Source: Patescibacteria group bacterium
Lineage (GTDB): Bacteria; Patescibacteriota; Minisyncoccia; RBG-13-40-8-A
Reading direction: 5' to 3'
Assembly: GCA_043807255.1 (NCBI GenBank)
Contig: JAZDGD010000004.1
Coordinates: 14,057 to 78,056 of the forward strand
Length of the DNA stretch: 64,000 nucleotides
Numbering within the stretch: position 1 is the first letter of the stretch; each line of letters starts with the position of its first letter. The notes beneath the pieces are model-generated. The model was not told where the DNA came from, did not search any database, and saw nothing but the letters and a program-made list of their open reading frames with translations. Shown piece after piece: positions 9,477 through 43,003 of the stretch. Made by a program: the position numbers and the translations under genes.

Positions 9477-10545
9477 ATATCGACCACAAAAATTTTCTGA
9501 CGTCGTTGGGCAAGAACACGTTGTGAAAACTTTAATCAACGCAATTAATAATAATAAAATTGCGCATGCTTATTTATTTGCGGGTCCACGAGGCACGGGC
9601 AAAACAACAATTGCTCGTCTTTTAGCGAAAGCAGTGAACTGCACCGACAAATCTAGTTATGAGCCTTGCAATAAATGCGAATCCTGTGTAGAAATAATGG
9701 AGAATCGGGCGATGGACTTGATTGAGATTGATGCTGCCTCAAATCGTGGGATTGATGAAATTAGGGAATTGCGCGAGAGGATTAGGTTTGCGCCAACACA
9801 TAGTAAATATAAGGTTTTTGTGATTGATGAAGCGCATCAATTGACTAAAGAGGCATTTAATGCGCTCCTGAAGACCCTAGAAGAGCCTCCAGCACACGCA
9901 ATCTTTATTTTGGCTACAACCGAAGCGCATAAGATGTTGCCGACGATTCTGTCACGTGTACAGAGATTTGATTTTAAAAAACTTTCATTGGCCGATGTAA
10001 TAAAAAAGTTAGAAATTGTCTCTAAAAAAGAACAAATTAAAATTAGCGACAAAGCATTAAGAATTATCGCTTTAAACTCGGAAGGATTTATGAGAGACGC
10101 AGAAAGCATGTTAGGACAGGTGATTGCGTTTAGTGGAGACAAAGAAATTACGATTGAAGACATCGAACATATTTTAGGAATTGTAGATATTAATTTGGCA
10201 ATTAAACTTGTAGAAATACTGGCAAAAAAAGATTCTAAAGAAGCATTGTCGTTTATTGATAAATTTGTAAATCAGGGTCTTGATTTGGTGCAATTTACAG
10301 AATCTTTAATAAATTATTTTAGAAAATTAATGCTTTTAAGGGTAAGTAATGATTTGTCAAAACTAATTAAGGAAGAATTAAGCGCCGAACAATTGGGTAC
10401 GGCGATTAAACAAGCAGAACAATTTTCTTTGCAGGAACTGTCCAAAACCATTGAAATTTTAATTCAGACGTTGTATGATATGAAACGTTCATCTTTCCAG
10501 CAAATAAACATGGAATTAGCGGTAGTAGAAATCTGTAACAGATAA
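9448..10545 (+). CDS. dnaX: DNA polymerase III subunit gamma/tau, short form (domains I-III only)
   Basis: MENNLAIYRKYRPQ...GPRGTGKTT Walker A, zinc module CNKCESC, DEAH box VIDEAHQL; 366 aa from the likely start. Confidence 0.85.
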   Translation: MENNLAIYRKYRPQKFSDVVGQEHVVKTLINAINNNKIAHAYLFAGPRGTGKTTIARLLAKAVNCTDKSSYEPCNKCESCVEIMENRAMDLIEIDAASNRGIDEIRELRERIRFAPTHSKYKVFVIDEAHQLTKEAFNALLKTLEEPPAHAIFILATTEAHKMLPTILSRVQRFDFKKLSLADVIKKLEIVSKKEQIKISDKALRIIALNSEGFMRDAESMLGQVIAFSGDKEITIEDIEHILGIVDINLAIKLVEILAKKDSKEALSFIDKFVNQGLDLVQFTESLINYFRKLMLLRVSNDLSKLIKEELSAEQLGTAIKQAEQFSLQELSKTIEILIQTLYDMKRSSFQQINMELAVVEICNR

Positions 10546-20508: not shown

Positions 20509-20537
20509 GATATCCAGAGGACAGTCCTCTGGATATC
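20509..20537. terminator. perfect palindrome agatatccagaggacagtcctctggatatct (GAGG-loop-CCTC family)
   Basis: inverted repeat after the 19497 gene; a second hairpin aaaagaggagacgttgttctcctcttttt lies at 20471-20499. Confidence 0.5.
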
Positions 20538-22195: not shown

Positions 22196-22377
22196 TTTTA
22201 AAAGAATTGTTTACAAAAAGTCACGTGTCAATTTTGTTGAAACAAAATTGCACTCTATCTCAACCGACTGCGGTCGGTCTCCGATGCGGACTTTTATATA
22301 AACAATTCTTTTTTATTATTGACGGGATTTTATTTAAAAGTTATGCTTTAAGTGTCAAATTTAACAGGAGGTGTACT

Positions 22378-23647: not shown

Positions 23648-25096
23648 ATGGCGAATAAATATGAACCGACAATTGGACTAGAAATCCACGTGGAGTTAAA
23701 GACCAAAACAAAAATGTTTTGTTCTTGTTTGAACGTCCCGACTGCGGTCGGGATCCTCGACACCAACAGTGTCGGGAACCCCAATGTTAATATTTGCCCG
23801 GTCTGTACTGCACAGCCTGGTTCAATGCCGGTAATTAATGAAGAAGCAGTTCACGACGTGATTAAGGCGGGGTTGGCTTTGAATTGTAGAATTAACGAGA
23901 AAACCTGGTTTGAAAGAAAGAATTATTTTTATCCTGATTTGCCAAAAGGATATCAAATTACACAATTTGAATCCCCTCTGTGTTTTGAGGGAAAATTAGA
24001 CAATATTCGGATTAGAAGGATTCATTTAGAGGAGGACGTTGGTAAATCGATTCATGATAGAGGCGACTATTCTTTGGTTGATTATAATCGTGCGGGAGTG
24101 CCTTTAATGGAATTAGTTACTGAACCAGATATTCGTAATGCCCAACAGGCTAAAAAATTTGCCCAAGATCTACAATTAGTTTTTAGATATTTAGGAATTT
24201 CTGATGCTGATATGGAAAAAGGACAAATGCGCGTAGAAGCAAATATTTCTTTAAATATGGGAACAAAAGTTGAAGTGAAAAATCTCAATTCTTTTAGGTC
24301 AGCAGAGAAGGCAATCGAATACGAAATTATTAGGCAACAAGCGGTTTTGGAAGAAGACGGGAAAGTTATTCACGAGACAAGGGGATGGAATGACGCAAAA
24401 GGAGAAACTTTTTCTCAAAGAATCAAAGAAACATCTGACGATTATCGATATTTTCCTGAACCAGACCTACCTCCATTAAATTTTAGCAAAGACGATATTG
24501 AAAAATTAAAACAAGAAATTCCTGAATTACCGTTTGCGAGAAAAGAAAGACTAATAAAAGAATATAAATTATCAGAACAGAGCGTTGATGTTTTGGTTGG
24601 ATTTAAGTATTTATCAGATTTCTTTGAGCAAACAATAGGCGAATTAAAGGGTTGGCTGGAAAGCGGGAAAATTAAAACTGACATTGATCGATTGATTGTA
24701 TTGAGTGCAAATTATATCATTACTGAATTTCCTAAATTTGTACCCACAACTGGAGAAATTAAAATCACCCCAGAAAATTTTGCAGAACTTATCTATATGA
24801 CTTTTATTGGTGATATTTCTTCGAGTGGAGCACAAGAAGTTTTAAAAGAAATGTTTCGAACTGGTGGCGATCCATCACAAATCGTTGAATCAAAAAATCT
24901 AAAACAAATGACTGATACAGGAGAAATGGATGCGATTATTGATAAAATAATAAAAAATAATCCTCAACCGGTTGAGGATTACAAGAAAGGCAAGGGGGCT
25001 GCGTTACAATTTTTAATTGGTTTGGCAATGAAAGAATCAAAAGGCAAGGCCAATCCAAATATCGTAGAGGAGATTGTCAAAAATAAATTAGGATAA
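23648..25096 (+). CDS. gatB: Asp/Glu-tRNA amidotransferase subunit B
   Basis: IGLEIHVEL...ICPVC...NRAGVPLMELVTEPD and a C-terminal GatB/YqeY domain. Confidence 0.9.
   Translation: MANKYEPTIGLEIHVELKTKTKMFCSCLNVPTAVGILDTNSVGNPNVNICPVCTAQPGSMPVINEEAVHDVIKAGLALNCRINEKTWFERKNYFYPDLPKGYQITQFESPLCFEGKLDNIRIRRIHLEEDVGKSIHDRGDYSLVDYNRAGVPLMELVTEPDIRNAQQAKKFAQDLQLVFRYLGISDADMEKGQMRVEANISLNMGTKVEVKNLNSFRSAEKAIEYEIIRQQAVLEEDGKVIHETRGWNDAKGETFSQRIKETSDDYRYFPEPDLPPLNFSKDDIEKLKQEIPELPFARKERLIKEYKLSEQSVDVLVGFKYLSDFFEQTIGELKGWLESGKIKTDIDRLIVLSANYIITEFPKFVPTTGEIKITPENFAELIYMTFIGDISSSGAQEVLKEMFRTGGDPSQIVESKNLKQMTDTGEMDAIIDKIIKNNPQPVEDYKKGKGAALQFLIGLAMKESKGKANPNIVEEIVKNKLG
23737..23779 (+). repeat. palindromic element cccgactgcggtcgggatcctcgacaccaacagtgtcgggaac inside the gatB N-terminus; a near-copy is intergenic at 63124-63166
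   Basis: two overlapping hairpins (gtcgRggatcctcgac and cgacacc..ggtgtcg); encodes VPTAVGILDTNSVGN between the conserved FCSC and PNVNICPVC blocks. Confidence 0.75.
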
Positions 25097-25103
25097 ACCC
25101 CGC

Positions 25104-27080
25104 TTAGCGGGGTAAAAATCGCTTTATTAATTTTTCGGCCCGAACTAGGTTCTTAACCCAGTTTATTTTTTTGCCTGGATATTTATTAAACCAAGTCATT
25201 TGGCGTTTGGCAAAGTTGATAATTTGTTGCTCTAGTTGTTCGATCATTTGTTCTTTGGTTAAGATTCCCTGCAAGTAACGTGCCACATAGCGATACTCTA
25301 GACCAAAATCATCTAAACGTTTCCAGGTTACGCCTTGTTTGTGTAATTTTTTTATTTCTTCAATCATTCCCGCATTAATGCGTTTAATTAGGCGTGTGTG
25401 AATTAATTTTTTTAATTCGGAAATTGATTTCTTAATTCCAACATATAGAACATTGAAATTAGATTCTGTTGAATTTAATTCTGGCACAGGTTTTCCGGTT
25501 TTGATAACAATTTCTAACGCCCTGATTAATCTTCGGCGATTTTTGGCATCAATATTACTTGCTCGATTTGGATCGAGTTTTTTTAGTTGTTCAAATAATT
25601 TTTCGGTTGTTTTCTTTTCCAGTTCTTTTCTTAGTTTCCAATCCGGCGCTACTTCGGGAATATTTATATTTTCAGTTATTGCTTGAATATAAAATCCTGT
25701 TCCCCCGCAAATAATTGGAGTTTTTTCTTTTTTTAAAATTTTATTTATTGCTTCAAGTGCCAATTTTTTGTATTCGGCAACACTAAATTGTTTTTTTGGA
25801 TTTGCAATATCTAATAAATAATGCGGAACTCCTTGCATTTCTTTTTTCGTGATTTTGCCCGTGCCGATATTCATTCCTTTGTAGATTTGTCGAGAGTCGG
25901 CAGAAACTATCTCGGCTTGCCCTGCTTGCCCCGCTCCTGCGGTGGAGCATGGTCGAAGGGCAATTTGTACGGCTAAATCGGACTTGCCAGAGGCAGTAGG
26001 ACCAAGAACCACAATCAATTTAGACTTCTGGTTTACTAATTTTTCTAAAATCTCCCATCGACGCTTTTTCTCGGCAAGTGGAACATTGTCCTCGAATTTT
26101 GCCGCAACCGTGCCTTGGCGAGTTGAATATTTATTGATATATGCCAAATCGAAATTTACTTCTTTAAATAATTTAATCGTATTTTCAAATTGTTTTTTTG
26201 TTTCTCCCGGGAAACCAACAATAATATCGGTTGTAAATTTCGCTTCGGGGATTTTATTTTTTATTTTTTTAATTAAATTGATATAGTGTTCGCGTGTATA
26301 TTTACGATTCATTTTTTCAAGAATTTTATTATCACCACTTTGTACTGGCAAGTGAATTTCTTTACTGATTTTGGAAGAATTTGCAATTACATCAATTAAT
26401 TCATCAGAAAAATCTTTAGGATGCGAGGTTAAGAATTTGATTGTAAAATTCCCAGGAATATTGTTTATCGTTTTAAGGAGTACAGGAAAAGTAGCCGGAG
26501 AACAGTTCTCCGTAATTACGGAGAACTGTTCTCCGTAGTAACTATTTACGTTCTGTCCGAGCAATACGATTTCTTTATAGCCATCTTTAATTAGTTTCCT
26601 AATTTCTTTTATTATATTTTTTGCTGGTCTCGAGGTCTCTCTTCCGCGAGTATGGGGAACAACACAATAGGTACAAAAATTATTGCACCCAGTCATTATT
26701 GGTACATAAGCGGATTTATGATTGGCCTGTCCGCCGGTGAGGTGGGAATGTTTTGGTTGTAATTCTAAATAGTTTTTCCCCAATAATTCATCTATCGATA
26801 ATACTTCATCAAAGAATTTTAAGAACTTAAGTTTATCGGCCTTAATCACGCATCCAGTTAATATTTTTTTGGCTTTTAGTTTTTTAAATTTTCTGTTTAG
26901 TCCAAAAACCCTATCAATTGCTGATTGTCTTACAGAGCAGGCGACAATCACTATCAAATCAGCCCCTTCTATTGTGGGGGCTGATTTAAATCCAGATTGC
27001 TCTAGATAACTACTTATTCTTTCGGAATCAGATATATTCATCTGACATCCGAAAACTTTTAGATAATACCTTTTCCCCAT
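25104..27080 (-). CDS. miaB-miaA: MiaB-MiaA fusion: tRNA-i6A37 methylthiotransferase (MTTase-N plus radical SAM, no TRAM domain) fused to tRNA dimethylallyltransferase
   Basis: N-terminal half has the MTTase Cys triad and radical-SAM CNNFCTYC; C-terminal half has GPTASGKS P-loop ...SADSRQIYKGMNIGT typical of MiaA; a continuous 658-aa ORF. Confidence 0.75.
   Translation of the reverse strand: MGKRYYLKVFGCQMNISDSERISSYLEQSGFKSAPTIEGADLIVIVACSVRQSAIDRVFGLNRKFKKLKAKKILTGCVIKADKLKFLKFFDEVLSIDELLGKNYLELQPKHSHLTGGQANHKSAYVPIMTGCNNFCTYCVVPHTRGRETSRPAKNIIKEIRKLIKDGYKEIVLLGQNVNSYYGEQFSVITENCSPATFPVLLKTINNIPGNFTIKFLTSHPKDFSDELIDVIANSSKISKEIHLPVQSGDNKILEKMNRKYTREHYINLIKKIKNKIPEAKFTTDIIVGFPGETKKQFENTIKLFKEVNFDLAYINKYSTRQGTVAAKFEDNVPLAEKKRRWEILEKLVNQKSKLIVVLGPTASGKSDLAVQIALRPCSTAGAGQAGQAEIVSADSRQIYKGMNIGTGKITKKEMQGVPHYLLDIANPKKQFSVAEYKKLALEAINKILKKEKTPIICGGTGFYIQAITENINIPEVAPDWKLRKELEKKTTEKLFEQLKKLDPNRASNIDAKNRRRLIRALEIVIKTGKPVPELNSTESNFNVLYVGIKKSISELKKLIHTRLIKRINAGMIEEIKKLHKQGVTWKRLDDFGLEYRYVARYLQGILTKEQMIEQLEQQIINFAKRQMTWFNKYPGKKINWVKNLVRAEKLIKRFLPR
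26506..26545. repeat. 40-bp perfect palindrome cggagaacagttctccgtaattacggagaactgttctccg inside the miaB portion
   Basis: encodes YYGEQFSVITENCSP; 21-23-bp cores (g)tacggagaacagttctccgta(c) are intergenic at 32171-32193, 32912-32934 and 33379-33399. Confidence 0.8.
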
Positions 27081-27118
27081 TTTTCATTCTTGCCCCGTAG
27101 TGAGCGCGTAGCGCCCTA

Positions 27119-28885
27119 CTATGGGGTTAACTCTGTTTTTATTTTTTCGATAAATTTATCAATATCGATATTTTCGATTTCTTTTTTGCCTCGAGATCGA
27201 ATCGCCAATTCATTAGAATTCATTTCTTTGTCTCCAACAACAATAATATAGGGGATTTTTTGCATTTCTGCCTCACGAATTTTCTTGCCCACGGTATCAT
27301 CAGAATCATCAACCTCAACTCTAAAATCATGATCACTGAATTGCTTCTTAATTTTTTGAGCAAATTCTTTGTGAGTTTTAGCAACCGGCAAGATTATAAT
27401 TTGTACTGGTGCCAACCAAAACGGAAACGCTCCAGCATAATGTTCAATTAATGTTCCCACAAATCTTTCCATCGAACCAAGTAGGGTTCTGTGGAGCATA
27501 ATTGGAATATGTTCTTTGCCGTCGGGGCCAATGTAGGTCATGCCAAATCTAGTTGGTAAATTCATATCTAGCTGGATGGTTGTACCTTGCCACTCGCGAC
27601 CCATTGAATCAACCGCCTTAAGATCTATCGATGGTCCATAGAATTTTGCTCCGCCAATATCTTTTTTGTATTCAATCTTTCTGTTTTTTAGAATTTCTTC
27701 AAGAGTTTGTTCGGCGAATTTCCAAATTTTTTCATTTTTAATATATTTTGCTTCTTTGTTTTTAACATCGCGAACAGACAAATAAACATTTAATTTATCA
27801 AATCCGAATGCTTTATTAATTTCAATTGCGAAATCAAAAATCTTATTTACTTCGTCGACAAACTGGTCTTCGGTGCAAATTATGTGCGCATCGTCCTGTG
27901 TAAATCCTCTTACTCTAAGCATGCCGTGTAAGACCCCAGATTCTTCATATCTATAAACGCTTCCCAGTTCGCACCATCTTATTGGTAATTCTTTATAGCT
28001 TCTCGGTTTAGATTTGTAAATTCTGATATGAAACGGACAATTCATTGGTTTTGCGTAATATGCCGCATTCTCAGTTTTGTCTTTTAAAGACATTTGCATT
28101 GGGGGATACATCATTTCTTTAAAGTTTTCTAAATGTCCTGATTTTTCCCACAAATTTGAAAGTCCAACATGTGGAGTATATACGTATTGATATCCATTTT
28201 TTCTGTGCTGTTTTCTCCAGTATAACTCTATTTCTTCTCTAACAATAGAAAGTTTTGGATGCCACAACACAAGTCCCGGTCCAACATAATCATCAATTGA
28301 GAATAAGTCTAAATCCCTGCCAAGTTTGCGATGATCTCGTTTTTCTGCTTCTTCAATTTGTTTTAAATAATTTTCTAATTCTTGTTTTGATTCGAAGGCG
28401 ACTCCATAAATTCTTTGTAACATTTTATTTTTTTCGCTTCCTTTCCAATATGCTCCGGCAATTTTTGTGAGTTTGAATGCTTCGGGATCAATTTCTTTGC
28501 TTGATTTAATGTGTGGGCCCTTGCAAAGATCCGTGAATTCTCCGCTTTTATAAATAGTCACATTTTTGCCATCAAGATCTTTTATAAGTTCAAGCTTATA
28601 GGGTTGGTCTTTAAAAAGTTTCCTTGCTTCTGCCTTAGAAATTAGTTTCTTTTTGAATTCAATGTTTTGTTTAATTATTTCTTTCATTCGAGTTTCAATT
28701 CTTGGTAGATCAGCTTCACTGATCGCAGAGACACGCTGATTATTTGCAAAATCAAAATCATAATAAAACCCATTATCAATTATTGGCCCAATACCAAATT
28801 TAATCTTTTCTCCAAAAAGATCTTTTACTGCATGTGCCATAATATGGCTCAACGAGTGTCGTATTAATTCAATTTGTTTTTCCAT
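27119..28885 (-). CDS. thrS: threonyl-tRNA synthetase; the start is taken at MEKQIELIR..., not the Arg-rich extension listed in the ORF track
   Basis: TGS/second additional domain, class II core, C-terminal anticodon-binding domain. Confidence 0.9.
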   Translation of the reverse strand: MEKQIELIRHSLSHIMAHAVKDLFGEKIKFGIGPIIDNGFYYDFDFANNQRVSAISEADLPRIETRMKEIIKQNIEFKKKLISKAEARKLFKDQPYKLELIKDLDGKNVTIYKSGEFTDLCKGPHIKSSKEIDPEAFKLTKIAGAYWKGSEKNKMLQRIYGVAFESKQELENYLKQIEEAEKRDHRKLGRDLDLFSIDDYVGPGLVLWHPKLSIVREEIELYWRKQHRKNGYQYVYTPHVGLSNLWEKSGHLENFKEMMYPPMQMSLKDKTENAAYYAKPMNCPFHIRIYKSKPRSYKELPIRWCELGSVYRYEESGVLHGMLRVRGFTQDDAHIICTEDQFVDEVNKIFDFAIEINKAFGFDKLNVYLSVRDVKNKEAKYIKNEKIWKFAEQTLEEILKNRKIEYKKDIGGAKFYGPSIDLKAVDSMGREWQGTTIQLDMNLPTRFGMTYIGPDGKEHIPIMLHRTLLGSMERFVGTLIEHYAGAFPFWLAPVQIIILPVAKTHKEFAQKIKKQFSDHDFRVEVDDSDDTVGKKIREAEMQKIPYIIVVGDKEMNSNELAIRSRGKKEIENIDIDKFIEKIKTELTP

Positions 28886-28890
28886 AAATT

Positions 28891-31800
28891 TTATCTTTGA
28901 CTTATTAATTCTTCTGCGTCGTCGCAGAGGATTTTTAATTGATCGTCTTTGTCGGTGAGGCGACCAGTAAGCATGATAATTTTTCCTTCTTGCCAAATTG
29001 TCGGATTTTTTTCTAAGATTGTAGCAAAAACCAATATTTCTACTGTTGCAGTTAAGTCCTCAATTTCCACGAATAACATTGGTTTTCCAGACTTTGTAAT
29101 AAATTTAGTAATTTTTATAATTACTCCCGCAACTTTCACTTTACTATCTTTTTTCTCTTTTATCAAGTCCTTGATCTGAACTGTGCGATGTTTTAAGAAT
29201 TCCTTGTGGTCATTTAGAGGATGATCTGAAATATACATTCCTAAAAGCTCTTTTTCCCACTGAATTTCTTCTTGAAGTAATTTCCTTTTTTCTCCATTAC
29301 TGGTTGCAAAAAGTAATTGATTTTTTTGCGAAATCGGTGCCTCGCCGAATAAACTGGTTTGTCCAAGATTTTTAGTTTTTTTTGATTCCTTAGAAAATTC
29401 TAATAAGTCCTCAATTTTATCAAGCAAATCTTTGCGTGGAGCTAAGGCATCGAATGCACCAGCACGGATTAAACTTTCTAAAGATTTTTTGTTTACAATT
29501 GTTGATTGACCTGCCTTCGGAGATAATCTGGTAAGAAAATCAGCCATTGTCTTGTATGTTCCATTTAATTTTCTTTCTGCAACGATTTCTGCAACTACGT
29601 TGTGTCCAACATTTTTAACCGCTGCCATGCCAAAGCGTATGGCGGATGGAGGAACGAGCGTAAAATTATCAAAGCTTTCATTAACGTCTGGTGGCAAAAC
29701 CTGAATTTTCATTTTTTTGGCCTCATCAACCAAAATATTAATTCGGTCTAAATCTTTTTGGTCCGCCTGCATCAATGCGGTTACAAATTCTGCTGGATAG
29801 TTCGCTTTTAAATATGCGGTTTGATAGGCGATTAAAGCATAACAAGTTGCATGTGAACGATTAAATCCGTATTGAGCAAATGGCTCAATCGAATCCCATA
29901 TTTTTTGCGCGATTGCTTTGTCAATTCCATTTTTAATCATTCCTTCAATCATTCTGTCCGCTTGTTGTTCAAGCAATTTTCTAATTTTCTTTCCCACCGC
30001 CTTTCTTAAAACATCTGCTTCGGACATTGAAAATCCAGCCAAGTCTTTGGCAATCTGCATTAATTGTTCTTGATAAATTGTAATGCCGTAAGTATTTTTT
30101 AAAATTGGTTCAAGCATTGGATGATCGTATCTGATTACTTTTTCACCGTTTTTTCTCGCAACATATTCTGGGATAAGATCCATTGGACCTGGACGATATA
30201 GTGCAACCATGGCAATAATATCTTCTAATTCACTGGGTTTTAATTTCTGTAGATATTTTCTCATTCCCGATGATTCAAGCTGAAAGACCCCGATGGTGTC
30301 TGCTTTTCTCAAAAGGTCAAATGTTTTTTTGTCGTCTAAGGGAATATTTTCAATGTTGATTTTAATTCCTCGTAATTTTTCAATAAGATTTAGGGCCGTT
30401 TCAATTGTGGTTAGGTTTTTAAGTCCCAGAAAATCCATTTTTAAAAGCCCCAATGCTTCGATGGCATGCATTTCATATTGCGAGACAATTGAGTTTTCAT
30501 TTTGTGGCGCAAATTGACGAGGAGTATAAAAGTCCAATGAATTTTTTGTGATCACAATTCCGCAAGCATGAGTTGATGCGTGTCTGGCAACACCTTCAAG
30601 CTTTTTCGCAATATCAAGTAATTTTTTGGCTTGATCGTCTGAATCGTATGCCTGTGAAAGTTCGGGCACTTTTTCTATTGCGTCTTTTAAAGAAAACCCA
30701 AAGGGAATCATTTTTGAAAGTTGGTCACAAAAAGCATAGGGATAACCTAGCGCCCTGCCAGCGTCACGAATTGCAGCACGCGCAGCCATTGTTCCAAAGG
30801 TTATAATTTGAGCAACGTGGTCGGCTCCGTATTTTTTCGTTACATAGGCAACAACCTCATCACGTCGGACATCAGCAAAGTCCAAATCAATATCAGGCAT
30901 ACTAATTCTTTCGGGATTTAAAAATCTTTCAAAAAGTAATTTGTATTTTAATGGGTCAACATTAGTAATGTTTAACAGATAAGAAACAATTGAACCAGCT
31001 GCTGAACCACGACCCGGACCAACAACAATGCCATTATTTTTTGCCCAATTAACAACATCTTGAACAATTAAAAAATAGGAAGCAAAACCAGTTTTTTTAA
31101 TTACACCTAATTCGTAGTTCAATTGTTTTTTTGCCTGTTCAGAATTTTCCCCAAAGTCTCTTTTGGTCATTCCTTGTTCGCATAATTCTTTTAAATATCC
31201 ATCAGCGGTTTGGTCGTCGGGAAGAGGGAAGTGGGGAAGTTCGGTTTTGTCGAGTTCCAATTTCACGTCGCACATATCTGCAATTTTTTGAGTATTGGTA
31301 ATTGCTTCAGGAACATTTCTGAATGCTCGAATCATTTCATCGGGCGATTTTAAAGAATAATCTTCATTCATCATATTCATTCTATCTTTTTCATCAACAG
31401 TTCTCACTGTTTGTACGCAAAGTAAAACATCATGAACTTCTGCATCTTCTTTGTTTAAATAATGAGTATCGTTTGTAGCAACTAATGGTAAGTTTGTTTC
31501 TTTGGCTAATTGAATTAATTTCTCGTTTATTCTTACTTGTTCTAAGTCGTTGGGATGATCCATAATTTCCAAATAAAAATGATCTTTACCAAAAAGTTTA
31601 GAATATTCCAGGGCGATTTTTTTTGCTTTTGCTAAATCATCGGAAGCTAACGCAGAAGGAACCTCGCCTTGTGGACAGGCACTTAAAGCAATCAATCCTT
31701 CGTGATATTCTCTTAAAACCTCCCAATCAATACGCGGTTTATAATAAAATCCTTCAAGGTATGATTTGGTTACCAATTTAATTAAATTATGATAGCCGGT

Positions 31801-32091: not shown

Positions 32092-32125
32092 GTAATGATT
32101 TTAGCATTTTTAAAAAAGAAATGAA

Positions 32126-32235
32126 AACACGAAAATTACCGAGGTCAGACCTCGGACATAATATAATATGTACGGAGAACAGTTCTCCGTACATCTATAT
32201 TGTCTCCATTTTCGTACGGCCGTGAAAAAAGGGAG
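32126..32235 (+). repeat. intergenic module R1 (CCGAGGTCAGACCTCGG hairpin, TACGGAGAACAGTTCTCCGTA hairpin and a GTACGGCCGTG hairpin); a 110-bp identical copy is at 32867-32976
   Basis: direct repeat read by eye. Confidence 0.85.
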
Positions 32236-32258
32236 ACACGGGAAAACAAAAAAAGTAC

Positions 32259-32287
32259 TTGATTAATAATTTTTATAAGTGTATATT
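32259..32287 (+). promoter_or_regulatory. promoter TTGATT-17-TATATT for the small-gene pair
   Basis: spacing and hexamers read by eye. Confidence 0.45.
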
Positions 32288-32331
32288 GTAATTGAATTCG
32301 AGAATCGAATTTTAAAAAAGAGGAGGAAACG

Positions 32332-32604
32332 ATGGAAAACAAAAAAGTTAACGCATGGAAAGTTCCTTTTAAGGCCGTTGGTGTCGCATTGAGAGTAACG
32401 TGGATTTTGCCAGCCTTCTCGCTGTGTTTAATGTTTTACATGATATGTCTGTATCCACAAGAATTTCGTGACGGCGTCAAACACAAAGATGGTTTAATGT
32501 GGTTCTTATCTTACATTATAATCTGTATTGCCTGGATTATTTTTGCAGTGATTCATAAATACAGAAATCGGCGAAACAAGAAGAAATTTCAAAAAATTAA
32601 TTAA
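32332..32604 (+). CDS. small membrane protein (90 aa, 2 TM helices, basic tail), strong SD
   Basis: aaaagaggaggaaacgATG; hydrophobic helices. Confidence 0.5.
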   Translation: MENKKVNAWKVPFKAVGVALRVTWILPAFSLCLMFYMICLYPQEFRDGVKHKDGLMWFLSYIIICIAWIIFAVIHKYRNRRNKKKFQKIN

Positions 32605-32615
32605 GGAGGTACGAA

Positions 32616-32804
32616 ATGATAGTGATTGTGTACTTTATGGAAGGATCGTTACTTAAAAGGATTGAAGGCACTTTTAAGGACAACTTAGAAGCGGCGGATT
32701 ATTTGGTAAAATGTGGGTGGCATCGGTCTCAAGTTAATCGATGGGAGTCCGGGGGCGATAACCATCATGCACGCATTATTCATGTGGATCCGCCTCGTCA
32801 GTAA
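32616..32804 (+). CDS. small hypothetical protein (62 aa), strong SD
   Basis: ttaaggaggtacgaaATG; followed by a terminator at 32806-32866. Confidence 0.45.
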   Translation: MIVIVYFMEGSLLKRIEGTFKDNLEAADYLVKCGWHRSQVNRWESGGDNHHARIIHVDPPRQ

Positions 32805-32866
32805 AAAGGAGGGCGTTTGCACGTGGGTCGGTAACCATCCCGGCCCTTTTTTATTTTTTTTACACA

Positions 32867-33030
32867 AACACGAAAATTACCGAGGTCAGACCTCGGACAT
32901 AATATAATATGTACGGAGAACAGTTCTCCGTACATCTATATTGTCTCCATTTTCGTACGGCCGTGAAAAAAGGGAAACACAAAAAACAACCCAAAAAAAC
33001 TTGACAGGATTTGTGGACGTGCTATAATGG
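32867..33030 (+). repeat. intergenic module R2 (copy of R1 plus the promoter block)
   Basis: 32867-32976 matches 32126-32235; 32940-33030 matches 33400-33490. Confidence 0.85.
33001..33029 (+). promoter_or_regulatory. consensus promoter TTGACA-17-TGCTATAAT
   Basis: ttgacaggatttgtggacgtgctataat. Confidence 0.6.
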
Positions 33031-33034
33031 TAGC

Positions 33035-33320
33035 ATACGAGAAGGTGGGGGGTGCCAAGCAAAAATTGCCCTTTGGCTGCAACACCCCCTTGTTCTTTCC
33101 TTAAGACAACGAACAAATTTTATAGATATGCTATACTGTGGGGAGAGTTATTAATACTGGAGACGGCGAACCGTCAAAAGGCGAGATACTCTCTCCACCC
33201 CAATCTGATCCTTATGTCTTTATGAAATAGGGGACACATAAACGGACGCCAAAAGTGGCTTCTAGTATTCCGTCCCCGCCCCGGCGAGAACTACATTATA
33301 CCCTCGCCGGTATTTTTTTG
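33035..33320 (+). ncRNA. candidate sRNA/leader transcript of unknown family, ending in a terminator
   Basis: driven by the consensus promoter; no RBS-bearing ORF; internal hairpins (GGGGGGTG/CACCCCC; GGGGAGAG/CUCUCCCC); terminator ccggcgag...ctcgccgg plus T-run at 33283-33320. Confidence 0.3.
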
Positions 33321-33376
33321 TTTTAAATTTACCCCATAGCAATTTTGTTAAAAATTTGATATGGAGTTTGCATTAG

Positions 33377-33490
33377 ACATACGGAGAACTGTTCTCCGTA
33401 TGTCTCTCTTTTTGTACGGCCGTGAAAAAAGGGAAACACAAAAAACAACCCAAAAAAACTCAGACAGGATTTGTGGACGTGCTATAATGA
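33377..33490 (+). repeat. intergenic module R3 (partial copy, including the promoter block)
   Basis: shares tacggagaactgttctccgta, gtacggccgtgaaaaaagggaaacacaaaaaacaacccaaaaaaac and ggatttgtggacgtgctataatg. Confidence 0.8.
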
Positions 33491-33494
33491 TAAA

Positions 33495-33722
33495 CATTAA
33501 GAGAATCGATCTTTAATTTTGACTCAATTGAAACGATGGGAAGACTTATGCCTCCTTTGGGCCAGACAAACGAATGAGACCTGACGGTCCGTTTGTACCC
33601 ATTGTTTCTAGTTGATAGAGTTTGTGCGAAGCAGGCCCAATCCGGCGCAAAGGAATGCGCTTCTGTTCGCTAGACTCGACGGGACATTCGAAAGGATGTC
33701 CCGTTTATTTTTTTAAAATTTG
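33495..33722 (+). ncRNA. candidate sRNA or r-protein leader of unknown family, ending in a terminator just upstream of rpmF
   Basis: promoter (C)AGACA-17-TGCTATAAT at 33461-33489; no credible ORF; hairpins; terminator gggacattcgaaaggatgtccc plus T-run at 33689-33722. Confidence 0.3.
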
Positions 33723-33757
33723 CATTAATTTATTTTTTCTGATATCATAAAACCAAT

Positions 33758-34063
33758 ATGCCAATACCAAAACAAAGACACACTAAATCGAGAAGAAACA
33801 GACGAAGATCTCATCTTAAATTGAAGAAGAGAACTCTTTCGAATTGCCCGAAATGTGGAGAAACGATTCTGCCGCACCATGTTTGTGCTTTTTGTGGTTT
33901 CTATAATGGAAAAGAAGAAATTGATGTTCTTGCCAAATTAGAGAAAAAAGACAAAAAGAAAAAAGAAAAAGAATTAAAAGAACATGAACACGACGCTAAA
34001 GAAGACAAAGCCCTGCCTACCGGCAGGCAGGCATTAGATTTAGAGAAAATGTCTAAAAAGTAA
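33758..34063 (+). CDS. rpmF: 50S ribosomal protein L32 with a Lys/Glu-rich C-terminal extension
   Basis: MPIPKQRHTKSRRNRRRSH...CPKCGE...HHVCAFCG. Confidence 0.85.
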   Translation: MPIPKQRHTKSRRNRRRSHLKLKKRTLSNCPKCGETILPHHVCAFCGFYNGKEEIDVLAKLEKKDKKKKEKELKEHEHDAKEDKALPTGRQALDLEKMSKK

Positions 34064-36258: not shown

Positions 36259-36954
36259 ATGAAGTTCAACATAATCACAATCTTTCCAGATATATTTCAA
36301 AGCTATTTTAACGAGAGCATTATTAAGCGTGCGCAGGAAACCCTAGTCCGACCGGACGGGTCTAGGAAGAAATTGGTGAATATTAAAATTCATAATTTAA
36401 GAGATTATACGGACGATAAAAGAAATACCGTTGATGACCATCCTTACGGTGGTGGGCCGGGAATGGTAATGATGGTGGAACCAATATTTAAAGCAATTAA
36501 AAAGTTGTCCCGCGTAGCGGGATCCCGCTCTGCGGGAAAGAATACCAAGATTATTCTCTTTTCCACTCGTGGGAAAAAGTTTGACCAGGCGATGGCGAAA
36601 AGATTTTCAAAATTAGATAATTTAATTATGATTTGTGGACGATACGAAGGAGTCGACGAAAGAGTGGCAAAGTATATTGCTGATGAAGAAGTTTCAATCG
36701 GGGACTATGTTTTAACTGGCGGAGAAATTCCGGCAATGATTGTCGTGGACGCGGTGAGTCGCCTGATTCCTGGCGTTTTAGGAAAACACGAATCACTCGA
36801 AGAAATTAAAGGTAGTTATCCTGTTTACACCCGCCCGCACAAATTTTCTCCAAAGAGAAAATTCAAGCGGGTAAATCCCGAAACCTGGAGGGTCCCAGAA
36901 GTTTTGTTGTCCGGCGATCACAAAAAAATAAACGAGTGGAGAAAGGGAAAATAA
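36259..36954 (+). CDS. trmD: tRNA (guanine37-N1)-methyltransferase (the ORF-track start at 36079 spans the hairpin cluster; [13 protein letters not shown] at 36259 is the likely start)
   Basis: [10 protein letters not shown], ...[12 protein letters not shown]..., C-terminal HKKINEWR; contains two GC-rich in-frame hairpin segments (36331-36357 and 36511-36545). Confidence 0.85.
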
Positions 36955-40214: not shown

Positions 40215-40480
40215 GGATAGTACATAATCATTAATTAAATTTTTATGTAAAAGAGCGATAACAATAAGCGTACTTTAAAACAGAGTTTAGTTTTGGAACG
40301 TAGTTCAAAAATTGAGCTCTGTTTTTTAATCAGAAAAACATGTACACAATATTCTAATATGTTTTTATGTAATTTACAGTAGTTTGTGTGAGTTTGTTAG
40401 ATCAAATCGAATCTTTTATGGTTATCCTGATACAATCAGAAGTAGGCAGGCCGTTTCGGCCAATCTACTTCTGAATCTTT

Positions 40481-41940
40481 ATTGAGAGTTTGATCCTAGC
40501 TCAGGACGAACGCTGGCGGCGTGGATTAGGCATGCAAGTCGAATGGGTTTAGACCCATGGCGAACGAGTTAGTAAGACGTAGGTACATCCCTCTGACTCG
40601 GACATAACTTGCCGAAAGGCAAGATAATTTCCGATGGTCTCGAAAGAGTAAAGTCTTATCGCAAGATAAGATGGTGAGAGAGTGGCCTGCGCCCTATCAG
40701 CTAGTTGGTGAGGTAATGGCTCACCAAGGCTATGACGGGTAGGGGGCGTGAGAGCGTGTTCCCCAACGATGGCACTGAGATACGGGCCCTACTCCTACGG
40801 GAGGCTGCAGTCGAGAATCTTCCACAATGGACGAAAGTCTGATGGAGCGACGCCGCGTGAATGAAGAAGTCCTTCGGGATGTAAAGTTCTTTTCTAGAGG
40901 AGCAATTTTTGAGTGTACTCTAGGAATAAGGGGTTGCTAAACTCGTGCCAGCAGCAGCGGTAATACGAGTACCCCAAGCGTTGTCCGGAATTACTGGGCG
41001 TAAAGCGTCTGTAGGGTGTTTGATACGTCTTCTGTTAAATTTCGATGCTCAACATCGGAGCTGCAGGGGAAACGGTCAGACTAGAGAGTGTGAGAGGCTG
41101 ATGGAACTTAAGGAGTAGGGGTGAAATCCGTTGATACCTTAGGGAATACCAAAGGCGAAGGCATTTGGCTGGTGCATTTCTGACCCTGAGAGACGAAAGC
41201 GTGGGGAGCAAAAAGGATTAGATACCCTTGTAGTCCACGCCCTAAACTATGAATACTAGTTGTCTGAAGTATCGACCCTTCAGGTGACGAAGCTAACGCG
41301 TTAAGTATTCCGCCTGGGAAGTACGGTCGCAAGACTAAAACTCAAAGGAATAGACGGGAGCTTGCACAAGCGGTGGAGCGTCTGGTTTAATTCGACGGTA
41401 AGCGAAGAACCTTACCAGGGTTTGAAATTCTAGTGAAAACCTGATGAAAGTCGGGTCTTCTACAAGGACACTAGAACAGGTGCTGCATGGTTGTCGTCAG
41501 CTTGTGGCGTGAGTTGCTCCGTTAATTCGGGTAACAAGCGCAACCCCTGTCGTCTGTTATAAGTGTCAGACGAGACTGCCTCGTGATACGAGGAGGAAGG
41601 TAGGGATGACGCCAAATCAGCATGGCCCTTTGATACCCTGGGCAACACAGGCGCTACAATGGCCGAGACAATGGGTCGCCAAATCGTAAGATGGAGCCAA
41701 TCCCATCAAACTCGGTCCCAGTTCGGATTGGGGTCTGCAATTCGACCCCATGAAGTTGGAATCGCTAGTAATCGCAGATCAGCTACGCTGCGGTGAATAC
41801 GTTCTCAAGCTTTGTACTCACCGCCTGTCACACCAGAGAAGCCGGGAGTACCTGACGTGCCACGATTCGTGGTCCTAAGGTAAATTCGGTGACTAGGGTG
41901 AAGTCATAACAAGGCATCCGTAGGGGAACCTGTGGATGGA
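40481..41940 (+). rRNA. rrs: 16S rRNA (about 1460 nt); the gene ends ...GGGGAACCTGTGGATGGA and the canonical 3' tail GATCACCTCCTTA is not present
   Basis: AGAGTTTGATCCTAGCTCAG at the 5' end; universal blocks (GTGCCAGCAGCAGCGGTAATAC, GCATGGTTGTCGTCAGC, GTCATAACAAGG...); leader and trailer complementarity (TTATCCTG / CAGGATAA) brackets the mature gene. Confidence 0.9.
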
Positions 41941-42186
41941 CAATATTTTTACTTAGTTGATAAAATTTCTAGGTAAAGTCGATTATCTTGCATTGCAGGA
42001 TAAAGCAAAAAAGTTTTTTAATTGTTTGTACTAAACAAACAGTAAGTATCGGGAGAACCATAAAAGATTTGATAATAAAAAAACGAGATTTAATCTCGTT
42101 TTTTTATTATATGCTTGCGTTTATTATTATTTTAGCTGTATAATATAAATAGTATTTTGATAATAATTAATAGTGAATAAAATATT

Positions 42187-42372
42187 ATGGCGGATATAAT
42201 AACCGACAATCCTGTTGCTCAAATTGCTTATTGCGTTAAGTGTAGGGCAAAGCAAGAAATGAAAGACGCAAAAGAAGTTAGAATGAAAGGCAAGGGAGGT
42301 GAAAGGCGCGCCTTGAAAGGTGTTTGCCCAGTTTGTGGAACTGGAATGTTTAGAATTTTAGGTAAGGCATAA
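42187..42372 (+). CDS. small zinc-ribbon protein (61 aa, CxxC...CxxC)
   Basis: CVKCRAK...CPVCGTGM; lies in the 16S-tRNA spacer after the hairpin aaaaaaacgagatttaatctcgttttttt; no SD. Confidence 0.35.
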   Translation: MADIITDNPVAQIAYCVKCRAKQEMKDAKEVRMKGKGGERRALKGVCPVCGTGMFRILGKA

Positions 42373-42450
42373 TTTAGAATGAGGCCTATAACCCAATGAG
42401 ACAGAGTCTCATTTTGGGTTCGGCCCGACCCAAATTATTTTGGGTTTAGG

Positions 42451-42524
42451 GGGCGTATAGCTCAGTTGGCTAGAGCGCGTCACTGATAATGACGAGGTCC
42501 ATGGTTCGAGTCCATGTACGCCCA
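42451..42524 (+). tRNA. tRNA-Ile (anticodon GAU); CCA not encoded
   Basis: gggcgta...ctGATaa...ggttcgagtcc...tacgccca cloverleaf. Confidence 0.85.
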
Positions 42525-42532
42525 TTTTTATC

Positions 42533-42603
42533 GGGCCTGTAGCTTAGTGGTAGAGCTCCCGATTTGCATTCGGGGGACGGGAGTTCGATTCTCCCCAGGT
42601 CCA
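42533..42603 (+). tRNA. tRNA-Ala (anticodon UGC) with the G3:U70 identity pair; CCA not encoded
   Basis: gggcctg...ttTGCat...gagttcgattctc...caggtcca. Confidence 0.85.
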
Positions 42604-42626
42604 TTGTAATAATTAACAATAAAAAC

Positions 42627-42890
42627 ATGACACACGAATCAATAGAATTTTCAAAAGTTCCCGATTCTGAGAATGTTAGAAAATTTTTAGATCCATTTAA
42701 AATTGAAGAGGGTATGAAATCTGGCGCACTTAACGATGTAAAAATTAAACGATCTTCTGGAGAAATAGAAAGTGGGTGGGAAATTATTGATTTTGATTTT
42801 AAGTCTGGCGATGTTGTGGCGTGCAAAAAAGAAGGAGATGATTTGCTCCGCAAAAGAGTACAGCTACAAAATTTACGAGAGTGGAACTAA
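42627..42890 (+). CDS. hypothetical protein (88 aa); the ORF-track start at 42564 overlaps tRNA-Ala
   Basis: ATG 42627 lies downstream of the tRNA; no motif. Confidence 0.35.
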   Translation: MTHESIEFSKVPDSENVRKFLDPFKIEEGMKSGALNDVKIKRSSGEIESGWEIIDFDFKSGDVVACKKEGDDLLRKRVQLQNLREWN

Positions 42891-43002: not shown

Positions 43003-43003
43003 A

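What the first reader, a model, noticed from the sequence alone, without database searches (positions are those of the whole stretch)
25104..27080. MiaB-MiaA fusion protein with MiaA replacing the TRAM domain
A single 658-aa ORF carries the MiaB MTTase N-domain and radical-SAM core (CNNFCTYC). At about residue 350, where the RNA-binding TRAM domain should begin, it switches into a complete MiaA (GPTASGKS P-loop, ...SADSRQIYKGMNIGT...). Both enzymes act successively on A37 of the same tRNAs (i6A, then ms2i6A). A fusion would channel the substrate, with MiaA providing tRNA binding. The MiaA part also contains a 13-aa Ala/Gly/Gln insertion (PCSTAGAGQAGQA) encoded by a GC-rich CCCCGC-type hairpin segment (25916-25946).
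Basis: partly seen in the sequence, partly recalled or inferred. Interest (0 to 1): 0.6.

Follow-up and report, generated by a model that had tools for sequence, protein, structure and literature searches.

The report
Fused MiaB–MiaA tRNA enzyme lacking TRAM
One gene in this small-genome (Patescibacteria) bacterium really does encode two consecutive tRNA-A37 modification enzymes joined head to tail, with MiaB's usual RNA-binding tail missing; this is a common but undescribed arrangement in that group, and loss of the tail and the fusion turn out to be separate evolutionary events.

Summary
Window 25104-27080 (-) is one uninterrupted 658-aa ORF. Residues 1-~350 are a MiaB methylthiotransferase (UPF0004 + radical-SAM, six cluster cysteines; above NCBIfam's MiaB cut-off) without the C-terminal TRAM domain. 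A 3-residue linker joins it to a complete MiaA.

It is not an assembly artefact. All 120 best database hits (53-100% identity, independent Patescibacteria assemblies) have the same single ORF, and five loci examined share the convergent gatB neighbour.

"MiaA replaces TRAM" is only partly supported. Relatives show all four states: separate +TRAM, fused +TRAM, separate TRAM-less and fused TRAM-less. Four TRAM-less miaB genes have no miaA within 3 kb. The states interleave on a rough tree, and linker length varies by 17 residues. TRAM loss and fusion therefore look like independent, recurrent events. The fusion most simply arose by stop-codon loss between translationally coupled genes.

The Ala/Gly/Gln insert is real. 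It is one of many in-frame inserts in this genome's housekeeping genes, most of them GC-rich and hairpin-forming. It is a disordered loop at a family-wide variable site and is not specific to MiaA.

No paper describing the fusion was found. Verdict: new variant of known enzymes, moderate interest.

The parts
25104..27080 (-). Whole miaB(ΔTRAM)-miaA fusion ORF, 658 aa plus stop
   Evidence: ORF; domains; 100% identical to NCBI protein P0001, which is annotated only as 'MiaB', from a Patescibacteria MAG.
26805..27071 (-). MiaB N-terminal MTTase (UPF0004) domain, aa 4-92, with auxiliary-cluster cysteines C12, C48, C77
   Evidence: PF00919, 1.4e-18. C48 and C77 invariant. C12 lies in 'FGCQMN' and is missing only from 5'-truncated gene calls.
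26169..26705 (-). Radical-SAM core, aa 126-304. The CxxxCxxC motif (C132/C136/C139) lies at 26664-26687.
   Evidence: PF04055, 4.6e-30; the three cysteines are invariant in 70 sequences. Foldseek match to MiaB 7MJZ, E 1.5e-30, TMt 0.69.
26025..26078 (-). Last MiaB helix (aa 335-349, EKKRRWEILEKLVN) plus 3-residue linker. This is the junction, where TRAM would start.
   Evidence: helix 335-349, strand 353-359, pLDDT about 89. TRAM block inserted here in P0053/P0057; split relatives place the miaB stop codon here.
25107..26024 (-). Complete MiaA (tRNA dimethylallyltransferase), aa 353-658. P-loop GPTASGKS at 25980-26003; D395 aligns with E. coli D42.
   Evidence: TIGR00174, 241.8 bits, profile 1-283/288; alignments to 2QGN, 3D3Q, 2ZM5. 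TMt 0.81-0.82 to tRNA-bound E. coli MiaA 3FOZ.
25914..25958 (-). Insert c: 'RPCSTAGAGQAGQA', a GC-rich (0.70) hairpin-forming in-frame insertion between MiaA helix α1 and strand β2
   Evidence: pLDDT <50 at aa 379-386. Family-wide variable site: window 15 residues against a median of 5.
26490..26535 (-). Insert b: 'GEQFSVITENCSPAT', containing a perfect 40-nt palindrome (26496-26535) made of two inverted copies of the 17-nt unit CGGAGAACNGTTCTCCG
   Evidence: I7, 100% complementary; fold -35 kcal/mol; 6 copies of the unit in the window, 0 expected; a compensatory variant at the same codon site in L081. pLDDT <50 at aa 187-193.
26718..26744 (-). Insert a: 'LTGGQAN', a GC-rich (0.62) in-frame insertion in the MTTase/radical-SAM connector
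   Evidence: pLDDT <50 at aa 113-120. P0022 has a different insert at the same site.
25097..25113 (.). CCCCGC-TTA-GCGGGG hairpin between the convergent gatB and miaBA genes. It overlaps the miaBA stop codon and last two codons (…PR*) and is a likely bidirectional terminator.
   Evidence: sequence; CCCGCNNNGCGGG: 4 copies against 0.02 expected. The terminator role is inferred.
27087..27128 (.). GC-rich hairpin element in the thrS-miaBA spacer. In relative L082 thrS and miaBA overlap by ATGA with no spacer.
   Evidence: window sequence; L082: thrS 6259-8004, miaBA 8001-9905.

Best explanation
The ORF encodes a bifunctional tRNA-A37 modification enzyme. Its C-terminal MiaA half transfers the dimethylallyl group from DMAPP to N6 of A37 in tRNAs that read UNN codons, giving i6A37. 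Its N-terminal MiaB half, a radical-SAM methylthiotransferase with two [4Fe-4S] clusters, then methylthiolates C2 to give ms2i6A37. The gene descends from a miaB-miaA operon that is conserved in Patescibacteria at the thrS…gatB locus and whose two genes are typically translationally coupled (ATGA-type overlaps). Loss of the miaB stop codon fused them. Loss of MiaB's C-terminal TRAM domain is a separate, recurrent reduction in these small genomes; it is found with and without fusion and with and without an adjacent miaA. The fusion guarantees 1:1 co-expression and co-localisation of two enzymes acting on the same nucleotide. It may ease hand-over of the tRNA, but the evidence does not show that MiaA is required to substitute for TRAM. 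The three lineage-specific inserts, including PCSTAGAGQAGQA, are tolerated surface loops derived from short hairpin repeats that pepper this genome. Shown here: the ORF, the domain content, residue conservation, recurrence, synteny and the four architectures. Inferred: both activities, the order of events, and any kinetic benefit.
For: Single ORF and domains. Catalytic residues invariant over 70 fused proteins. Recurrence: all 120 best hits carry Radical_SAM + IPPT in one protein, 119 of them also UPF0004; they come from NCBI, JGI, ENA and Logan. Synteny: dnaE-thrS-miaBA followed by convergent gatB in L082/L083; gatB also convergent in L081, L084 and L007. Split precursors with stop/start overlap or a short spacer: L003, L007, L001, L002, L004, L006, L092, and Coriobacteriia L067/L078. 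In the TRAM-less split forms the miaB stop sits at the fusion junction. Fusions that keep TRAM: P0053, P0057, P0121, P0123-P0127, P0130, P0131. At least 11 clusters (50% identity) of standalone TRAM-less MiaB end right after the same helix. The architectures interleave on an NJ tree of the MiaB core. AF2: pLDDT 84.4, pTM 0.68, short confident junction; three of the five pLDDT<50 segments are the inserts, the others being the cluster-binding Cys loop (133-142) and residues 536-538. The MiaB half scores above the MiaB equivalog cut-off and far below the MtaB and RimO cut-offs. Anton et al. [quoted passage not shown]
Against: There is no biochemical evidence for either activity in any Patescibacterium. 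No UNN-reading tRNA lies in the window, so the A36-A37 substrate context could not be checked. Whether these organisms make DMAPP was not examined. The tree is NJ without bootstrap, so the number and direction of fusion, fission and TRAM-loss events is only roughly indicated. Raw reads were not available. A TRAM-less MiaB has never been shown to be active, to my knowledge.
Confidence: 0.8

Rival explanations
1. MiaA has functionally taken over the role of TRAM. The MiaA anticodon-arm clamp holds the tRNA for both reactions, so A37 is prenylated and then methylthiolated in one binding event (obligate channelling), and the MiaB half cannot work without it.
For: MiaA starts exactly at the TRAM position with a 3-residue, confidently modelled linker. 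Most TRAM-less miaB genes examined are fused to miaA or lie in the same operon: all of architecture D plus L001, L002, L004, L006, L092 and L093. TRAM is thought to be a generic RNA clamp, hence replaceable (PMC2952846). pTM of 0.68 hints at a preferred mutual orientation.
Against: Four TRAM-less miaB genes have no miaA within 3 kb (L086, L088, L090, L091). Many fusions keep TRAM. Linker length varies by 17 residues across the family. Both enzymes need the same flipped-out A37 in their own active site, so MiaA cannot keep its normal grip while MiaB acts; this point is an inference from the published MiaA-tRNA and MiaB-RNA structures, recalled from my own knowledge.
Confidence: 0.25
2. Artefact: there are really two adjacent genes, a TRAM-less miaB and miaA, merged by a sequencing or assembly indel at the junction.
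For: Split versions whose miaB stop lies at exactly this position exist in related genomes, so a single-base error could create such an ORF. Reads were not available.
Against: The same in-frame junction is found in all 120 best hits, from different samples, assemblers and databases, including relatives at 78-83% identity. The junction DNA (…CAG AAG TCT AAA TTG ATT GTG…) has no homopolymer run, no stop remnant and no ATG for MiaA.
Confidence: 0.02
3. One half is a decayed or repurposed pseudo-enzyme. For example, the TRAM-less MiaB half may no longer act on tRNA, or may act on another substrate, leaving the protein effectively just MiaA (or just MiaB).
For: TRAM, a defining MTTase domain, is absent. 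The fusion protein is less conserved than its neighbours when compared with L082: 77.5% identity against 86-93%. It also carries three inserts.
Against: All cluster ligands and the MiaB and MiaA signature motifs are invariant across 70 sequences down to about 56% identity. Both halves exceed the curated equivalog cut-offs. The inserts sit in predicted disordered loops at family-wide variable sites. Part of the identity deficit comes from the inserts themselves.
Confidence: 0.06

Closest known systems
MiaB, tRNA-2-methylthio-N6-dimethylallyladenosine synthase (NCBIfam TIGR01574; B. uniformis structures 7MJV-7MJZ)
   Same: N-terminal UPF0004 domain with three cysteines, radical-SAM CxxxCxxC core, and a score above the MiaB equivalog cut-off. 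Sequence aligns to 7MJV residues 18-386 and the fold matches at TMt 0.69.
   Different: It lacks the C-terminal TRAM domain entirely (profile positions 372-437), has a shortened connector after the UPF0004 domain, and carries MiaA at its C-terminus.
MiaA, tRNA dimethylallyltransferase (TIGR00174 / PF01715; E. coli 2ZM5/3FOZ, B. halodurans 2QGN/3EXA)
   Same: Full-length match, with the P-loop, the catalytic Asp (D395 = E. coli D42) and the GGT, RALE and AKRQxTW motifs. TMt is 0.81-0.82 to the tRNA-bound form.
   Different: It has no start codon of its own and is fused behind MiaB. It has a 10-residue Ala/Gly/Gln loop insertion between α1 and β2.
Split miaB-miaA operons in Patescibacteria (L003 Nealsonbacteria, L007, L001, L002, L004, L006, L092) and Coriobacteriia (L067, L078)
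   Same: Same gene order. In the Patescibacteria loci L007 and L092 the thrS and/or gatB neighbours are also seen. Genes overlap (ATGA type) or have short spacers. In the TRAM-less cases the miaB stop lies at the position of the fusion junction.
   Different: They encode two polypeptides. The Coriobacteriia and some Patescibacteria versions keep TRAM.
TRAM-containing MiaB-MiaA fusions (P0053, P0057, P0121, P0123-P0127, P0130, P0131; 713-753 aa)
   Same: A single ORF with the same domain order, and the same convergent gatB neighbour in L084.
   Different: They retain an approximately 60-80-aa TRAM between the two enzymes.
Other two-step tRNA-modification fusions, e.g. bifunctional MnmC (recalled from my own knowledge, not tested here)
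   Same: Two consecutive enzymes acting on the same tRNA nucleotide are joined in one polypeptide, and they occur as separate proteins in other lineages.
   Different: Different chemistry and a different nucleotide (U34). There is no loss of an RNA-binding domain at the junction.
Rickettsia palindromic elements and REP-type repeats (recalled from my own knowledge; relevant to the inserts only)
   Same: Short, dispersed palindromic repeats that can sit in frame inside conserved protein-coding genes without destroying them.
   Different: The elements here are much shorter (14-40 nt) and most are GC-rich in an AT-rich genome. No associated transposase was looked for.

Membership tests
MiaB / MTTase (TIGR01574, TIGR00089) | N-terminal UPF0004 domain with three conserved Cys ligating the auxiliary [4Fe-4S] cluster | tested here: met
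   PF00919 at aa 4-92, 1.4e-18. C12, C48 and C77 are present. C48 and C77 are invariant in 70 sequences.
MiaB / MTTase (TIGR01574, TIGR00089) | Radical-SAM core with CxxxCxxC | tested here: met
   PF04055 at aa 126-304. C132, C136 and C139 are invariant.
MiaB / MTTase (TIGR01574, TIGR00089) | C-terminal TRAM RNA-binding domain | tested here: not met
   No PF01938 hit. The MiaB profile is covered only over positions 1-371 of 437. The 7MJV alignment stops at residue 386 of 457. There is a 3-residue linker to MiaA.
MiaB / MTTase (TIGR01574, TIGR00089) | Belongs to the MiaB subfamily rather than MtaB or RimO, judged by curated equivalog scores | tested here: met
   MiaB 371.4 bits against a cut-off of 355.3. 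MtaB 262.8 against 357. RimO 218.3 against 357.
MiaB / MTTase (TIGR01574, TIGR00089) | Converts i6A37 to ms2i6A37 in tRNA | not testable with these tools
   Requires anaerobic reconstitution and LC-MS of tRNA nucleosides.
MiaA (TIGR00174, PF01715) | P-loop GPTxxGK[ST] and catalytic Asp in the S-x-DS-x-x-x-Y motif | tested here: met
   GPTASGKS at 360-367. D395 aligns with E. coli D42. G360, K366, S393, D395, S396, Q398 and Y400 are invariant.
MiaA (TIGR00174, PF01715) | Full-length core plus the helical insertion domain that clamps the anticodon arm | tested here: met
   Profile positions 1-283 of 288 at 241.8 bits against a cut-off of 148.65. TMt 0.81-0.82 to 3FOZ.
MiaA (TIGR00174, PF01715) | Transfers dimethylallyl from DMAPP to A37 | not testable with these tools
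   Needs an enzyme assay or complementation of a miaA mutant.
Substrate-channelling bifunctional fusion | Single conserved polypeptide across many taxa | tested here: met
   All 120 best hits, and several 50%-identity clusters.
Substrate-channelling bifunctional fusion | Fixed inter-domain geometry or direct hand-over of the intermediate | tested here: inconclusive
   pTM is 0.68 with a short confident junction in this protein, but the linker varies from 13 to 30 residues across the family.
In-frame palindromic repeat elements (RPE/REP-like), for the inserts | Dispersed identical or near-identical copies in one genome | tested here: met
   CGGAGAACNGTTCTCCG occurs 6 times, CCTGCCTGCCGGTAGGCAGG twice and CCGACTGCGGTCGG twice; about 0 is expected for each. 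No repeated copy was found for the PCSTAGAGQAGQA segment itself.
In-frame palindromic repeat elements (RPE/REP-like), for the inserts | Presence/absence polymorphism between close relatives inside conserved genes, with the reading frame preserved | tested here: met
   Against L082 there are 9 window-specific inserts of at least 3 aa, in gatB, miaBA (three), thrS and four other sites. Seven of them have GC 0.62-0.76.
In-frame palindromic repeat elements (RPE/REP-like), for the inserts | A mobilising enzyme or a demonstrated transposition mechanism | not tested
   No search for RAYT or TnpA was made. Template-switch mutation is an alternative origin.

The most novel reading that the evidence does not exclude
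In Patescibacteria, MiaB and MiaA work as an obligate unit, covalent in this organism and non-covalent in the split relatives. The anticodon-arm clamp of MiaA has taken over the RNA-holding job of the lost TRAM domain, so A37 is prenylated and methylthiolated during a single tRNA-binding event. That would be a natural example of one RNA-binding module being swapped for a whole partner enzyme in a radical-SAM methylthiotransferase.
Probability: 0.25. Interest if true: 0.6.

Novelty: new variant of a known kind. Interest (0 to 1): 0.4.

Why it matters
There are three reasons.

1. Annotation. PGAP names this exact protein only "MiaB", and names its relatives only "MiaA" or only "MiaB". Metabolic or tRNA-modification reconstructions of candidate-phyla-radiation genomes will therefore wrongly score one of the two enzymes as missing.

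2. Enzymology. TRAM is treated as a defining third domain of all methylthiotransferases. Here is a large natural family of MiaBs without it, both fused and free. This provides ready-made material for asking what TRAM actually contributes, and whether a partner enzyme can replace it.

3. Evolution. The locus preserves all four intermediate states (split or fused, with or without TRAM) in related genomes. It is a clean natural series for studying gene fusion and fission at translationally coupled gene boundaries in reduced genomes.

The chemistry and pathway themselves are well known, so this is an interesting variant and not a new kind of system.

Tried and rejected
1. An independent fusion in Coriobacteriia. 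L067 and L078 matched the query over residues 1 to about 645, but ORF listing shows two genes in different frames, overlapping or 6 nt apart. A 750-aa cluster member on a contig of the same length as L067 (7,838 bp) proved to be a lysine-rich CPR-type protein, so the matching length was a coincidence.

2. Frameshift artefact as the explanation for the split forms. This was rejected after reading the junctions: L001 has a ~135-nt non-coding spacer, L006 a ~20-nt spacer, and L002 and L004 have clean stop/start overlaps.

3. The genome-contig scan. It gave only 7 relevant Patescibacteria loci and cannot be used for frequencies.

4. Literature. Five searches relevant to the fusion found no description of a MiaB-MiaA fusion or of a TRAM-less MiaB, and one search found nothing on in-frame palindromes in CPR genomes. 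The MiaB-RNA structure paper (Esakova et al. 2021, PMC9107155) is not held, so statements about TRAM-RNA contacts rest on my own knowledge and on Anton et al. 2010.

5. tRNA substrates. Only tRNA-Gln, tRNA-Ile and tRNA-Ala are in the window, so the A36-A37 context could not be examined.

6. Rfam at gathering thresholds found only rRNAs and tRNAs. Nothing overlaps the fusion gene or the repeat modules.

7. The 7.5-kb gap between tRNA-Ala and the 23S rRNA was suspected of holding an insertion element. It contains ordinary genes: two Mur ligases, a permease and an MS channel.

8. Model coordinates are not exposed, so the distance between the two active sites and the placement of MiaA relative to the TRAM position in 7MJV could not be measured.
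Full report
**1. Observation**

The window is AT-rich (36% GC). On the minus strand, 25104..27080 is a single ATG-initiated ORF of 658 aa with no internal stop.

- Pfam finds UPF0004 (aa 4-92), Radical_SAM (126-304) and IPPT (398-633), and no TRAM.
- NCBIfam's MiaB equivalog TIGR01574 scores 371.4 bits, above its 355.3 cut-off, but aligns only to profile positions 1-371 of 437.
- The MiaA equivalog TIGR00174 scores 241.8 bits (cut-off 148.65) over aa 355-642, profile positions 1-283 of 288.
- The MtaB and RimO models score far below their cut-offs.
- Against solved structures, aa 3-351 align to B. uniformis MiaB (7MJV) residues 18-386 of 457, and aa 352-642 align to full-length bacterial MiaAs.

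The description is accurate.

**2. Is it a real fusion?**

The exact protein is in NCBI from a Patescibacteria MAG, where it is named only "MiaB" (P0001). All 120 best hits, at 53-100% identity from NCBI, JGI, ENA and Logan assemblies, carry Radical_SAM + IPPT in one protein (119 of them also UPF0004). Where named, they come from Patescibacteria, Nealsonbacteria or Pacebacteria.

Gene order is conserved. dnaE-thrS-miaBA followed by a convergent gatB is seen in L082/L083 (78% identity relative), and gatB is also convergent in L081, L084 and L007.

Across 70 fused sequences the following are invariant: cluster ligands C48, C77, C132, C136, C139, the P-loop G360/K366, and the S393-D395-S396-Q398-Y400 motif. 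D395 aligns with E. coli MiaA D42.

An AlphaFold2 model built on that alignment has pLDDT 84.4 and pTM 0.68. The last MiaB helix (335-349) is followed by three residues and then MiaA strand 353-359, all at pLDDT about 89. Foldseek matches the N-terminal half to MiaB (7MJZ, TMt 0.69) and the C-terminal half to tRNA-bound E. coli MiaA (3FOZ, TMt 0.81-0.82). No solved chain spans both.

A sequencing artefact is therefore very unlikely, although reads could not be inspected.

**3. What the relatives show**

Four architectures coexist in related genomes.

| Architecture | Description | Examples |
|---|---|---|
| A | Separate miaB (+TRAM) followed by miaA | L007 (380-nt gap), L003 Nealsonbacteria (ATGA overlap), Coriobacteriia L067 and L078 |
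| B | Fused, TRAM retained (713-753 aa) | P0053, P0057, P0121, P0123-P0127, P0130, P0131 |
| C | Separate TRAM-less miaB | L001, L002, L004, L006, L092 and others |
| D | Fused, TRAM-less | This window, its large 50%-identity cluster, P0122 and P0133 |

In architecture C, L001 ends …EKKQRWKILDDLINKK-stop and has a ~135-nt spacer before MSNKLIVILGPTASG. L002 and L004 have stop/start overlaps, L006 has a ~20-nt spacer, and L092 overlaps. In each case miaB stops exactly where the junction lies in the window protein.

At least 11 clusters (50% identity) of standalone MiaB end right after the same helix, so TRAM-less MiaB is a genuine and widespread form.

Where the neighbourhood of unfused TRAM-less miaB could be read:
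- five have miaA immediately downstream;
- one has miaA one gene away (L093);
- four have no miaA within 3 kb (L086, L088, L090, L091).

On a rough NJ tree of the MiaB core the architectures interleave. The window's clade is sister to split L001, fused P0099 pairs with split L004, P0116 with L002, and P0133 with L006. The tree has no bootstrap support, so only these shallow pairings should be trusted.

Linker length between fixed anchors ranges from 13 to 30 residues over the 70 fused proteins. The window protein is in the shortest class.

**4. Mechanism**

From established knowledge of the pathway, MiaA prenylates N6 of A37 in UNN-reading tRNAs and MiaB then methylthiolates C2. Both halves here look catalytically competent, so the most likely product is ms2i6A37 made by one polypeptide.

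The fusion is most simply explained by loss of the stop codon between two translationally coupled genes. TRAM loss is a separate event, because it occurs with and without fusion and with and without an adjacent miaA.

Anton et al. 2010 (PMC2952846) showed that i6A/t6A discrimination lies outside TRAM, and suggested that TRAM may be a non-specific RNA clamp. That is compatible with the domain being dispensable or replaceable.

Most TRAM-less miaB genes seen are linked to miaA, and MiaA sits precisely at the TRAM position. It is not required by the data, however, and it is weakened by the unlinked TRAM-less genes, by the TRAM-retaining fusions and by the variable linker. I rate it at about 0.25.

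**5. The inserts**

Relative to close relatives, the protein has three in-frame inserts:
- LTGGQAN (DNA 26718-26744);
- GEQFSVITENCSPAT (26490-26535);
- PCSTAGAGQAGQA (about 25914-25958).

Three of the five segments with pLDDT below 50 coincide with these inserts. The other two are the cluster-binding Cys loop (133-142) and a 3-residue stretch at 536-538. All three insert sites vary in length across the family. PCSTAGAGQA is absent from the three solved bacterial MiaAs whose alignments were examined.

The inserts are not peculiar to this gene. Comparing orthologues between the window and L082 (neighbouring proteins 86-93% identical) gives 9 window-specific inserts of at least 3 aa. Seven have GC 0.62-0.76, and most of the larger ones form hairpins. 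The seven GC-rich ones lie in gatB, miaBA (two), thrS, a gene at 34010 and two sites near 36340-36543. L082 has its own GC-rich insert in the MiaA half.

Some of these elements are dispersed repeats:
- CCTGCCTGCCGGTAGGCAGG at 34012 and 49275;
- CCGACTGCGGTCGG at 22264 and 23738;
- the 17-nt unit CGGAGAACNGTTCTCCG six times, against 0 expected.

The 40-nt perfect palindrome in the MiaB half consists of two inverted copies of that 17-nt unit. The P0009 gene (67% protein identity) has a hairpin at the same codon position with paired compensatory changes, while closer relatives lack it.

**6. Comparison with what is known, and novelty**

Each half is a clear member of its family by curated scores and motifs, except that the MiaB half fails the TRAM criterion. 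The combination exists in public databases under automated single-function names, and one JGI entry names both functions. I found no paper describing the fusion or a TRAM-less MiaB in five relevant searches.

I classify it as a new variant of a known kind. The chemistry and pathway are textbook, but the domain architecture departs from the canonical three-domain methylthiotransferase and has not been characterised.

**7. Verdict**

Interest is 0.4. It has practical value for annotation, it is a good natural system for asking what TRAM does, and it offers a tidy fusion/fission series. It is not a new kind of biology.

Noticed in passing
window 23750-23776 (gatB), 28724-28738 (thrS), 34010-34030 (L32 gene), 36340-36366, 36529-36543; L082 9525-9539: Short (15-30 nt) in-frame insertions distinguish housekeeping genes of this genome from those of a relative whose proteins are about 90% identical. 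Most are GC-rich (0.62-0.76 against a 0.36 genome background) and form hairpins (36529-36543 is 0.47 GC but also forms a hairpin). The relative L082 has its own such insert. They resemble miniature in-frame palindromic elements.
   Followed up: partly
window 20515-20531, 26496-26535, 32173-32189, 32914-32930, 33382-33398; L081 642-681: The 17-nt palindromic unit CGGAGAACNGTTCTCCG (one copy as the variant CAGAGGACAGTCCTCTG) occurs six times in the window, against 0 expected. Two inverted copies form a perfect 40-nt palindrome inside miaB. A gene at 67% protein identity (L081) has the hairpin at the same codon position with paired compensatory changes, yet closer relatives lack it.
   Followed up: partly
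window 32092-33757: The dnaE-rpmF (L32) spacer is about 1.65 kb here but only about 80 nt in relative L082. It holds three copies of a roughly 110-nt module (32131-32240, 32872-33010, 33368-33490). Each module has two hairpins and, in the second and third copies, a consensus TTGACA-17-TATAAT promoter. There are also two small ORFs (32332-32604, 32616-32804) and GC-rich structured stretches (33255-33294, 33624-33660) that might be unannotated small RNAs. Rfam found nothing there.
   Followed up: partly
window 34012-34031 and 49275-49294; 22264-22277 and 23738-23751: Exact dispersed copies of two other short palindromes, CCTGCCTGCCGGTAGGCAGG and CCGACTGCGGTCGG. Two of the copies (34012 and 23738) lie inside coding sequence (the L32 gene and gatB). 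The coding status of the other two was not checked.
   Followed up: partly
window 130-202 and 47014-47102; 27087-27128: An imperfect inverted-repeat element (…CCCCGTAGTGAATTTTCCACT … AGTGGAAAATCTACTAC…) is present twice. A related CCCCGTAGTGA… hairpin fills the thrS-miaBA spacer, where the relative L082 has an ATGA overlap. It resembles REP elements in having a GTAG head, but this was not analysed.
   Followed up: no
window 40478-54057: The rRNA genes are unlinked. The order is 16S (40478-41951), tRNA-Ile and tRNA-Ala (42451-42603), about 7.5 kb of ordinary genes (two Mur ligases, an ArsP_2-type permease, an MS channel), then 23S (50114-52868, about 2.75 kb against a 2.9-kb model) and 5S (53949-54057).
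   Followed up: yes
L086/L087, L088/L089, L090, L091: Standalone TRAM-less miaB genes with no miaA within 3 kb. Their neighbours are the ribosomal protein L25 gene, thrS, mgsA or mutS. Whether these genomes have miaA elsewhere, or at all, is unknown. If miaA were absent, the substrate of these MiaBs would be an open question.
   Followed up: partly
L093 1140-4667: In one relative a 467-aa GATase_7 (asparagine-synthase-like amidotransferase) gene sits between the TRAM-less miaB and miaA, in the same orientation.
   Followed up: no
L005 927-2874: A TRAM-containing miaB-miaA fusion in a GTDB genome is split by a frame change inside the MiaB part (ORFs 927-1763 and 1567-2874). This is either an assembly error or a pseudogene.
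   Followed up: no
window 27119-28996: The mechanical thrS ORF starts at a TTG and adds an arginine-rich extension of about 40 aa that overlaps the 3' end of dnaE. The orthologue in L082 is 581 aa, so the true start is probably the internal Met (MEKQIELIRHS…).
   Followed up: no
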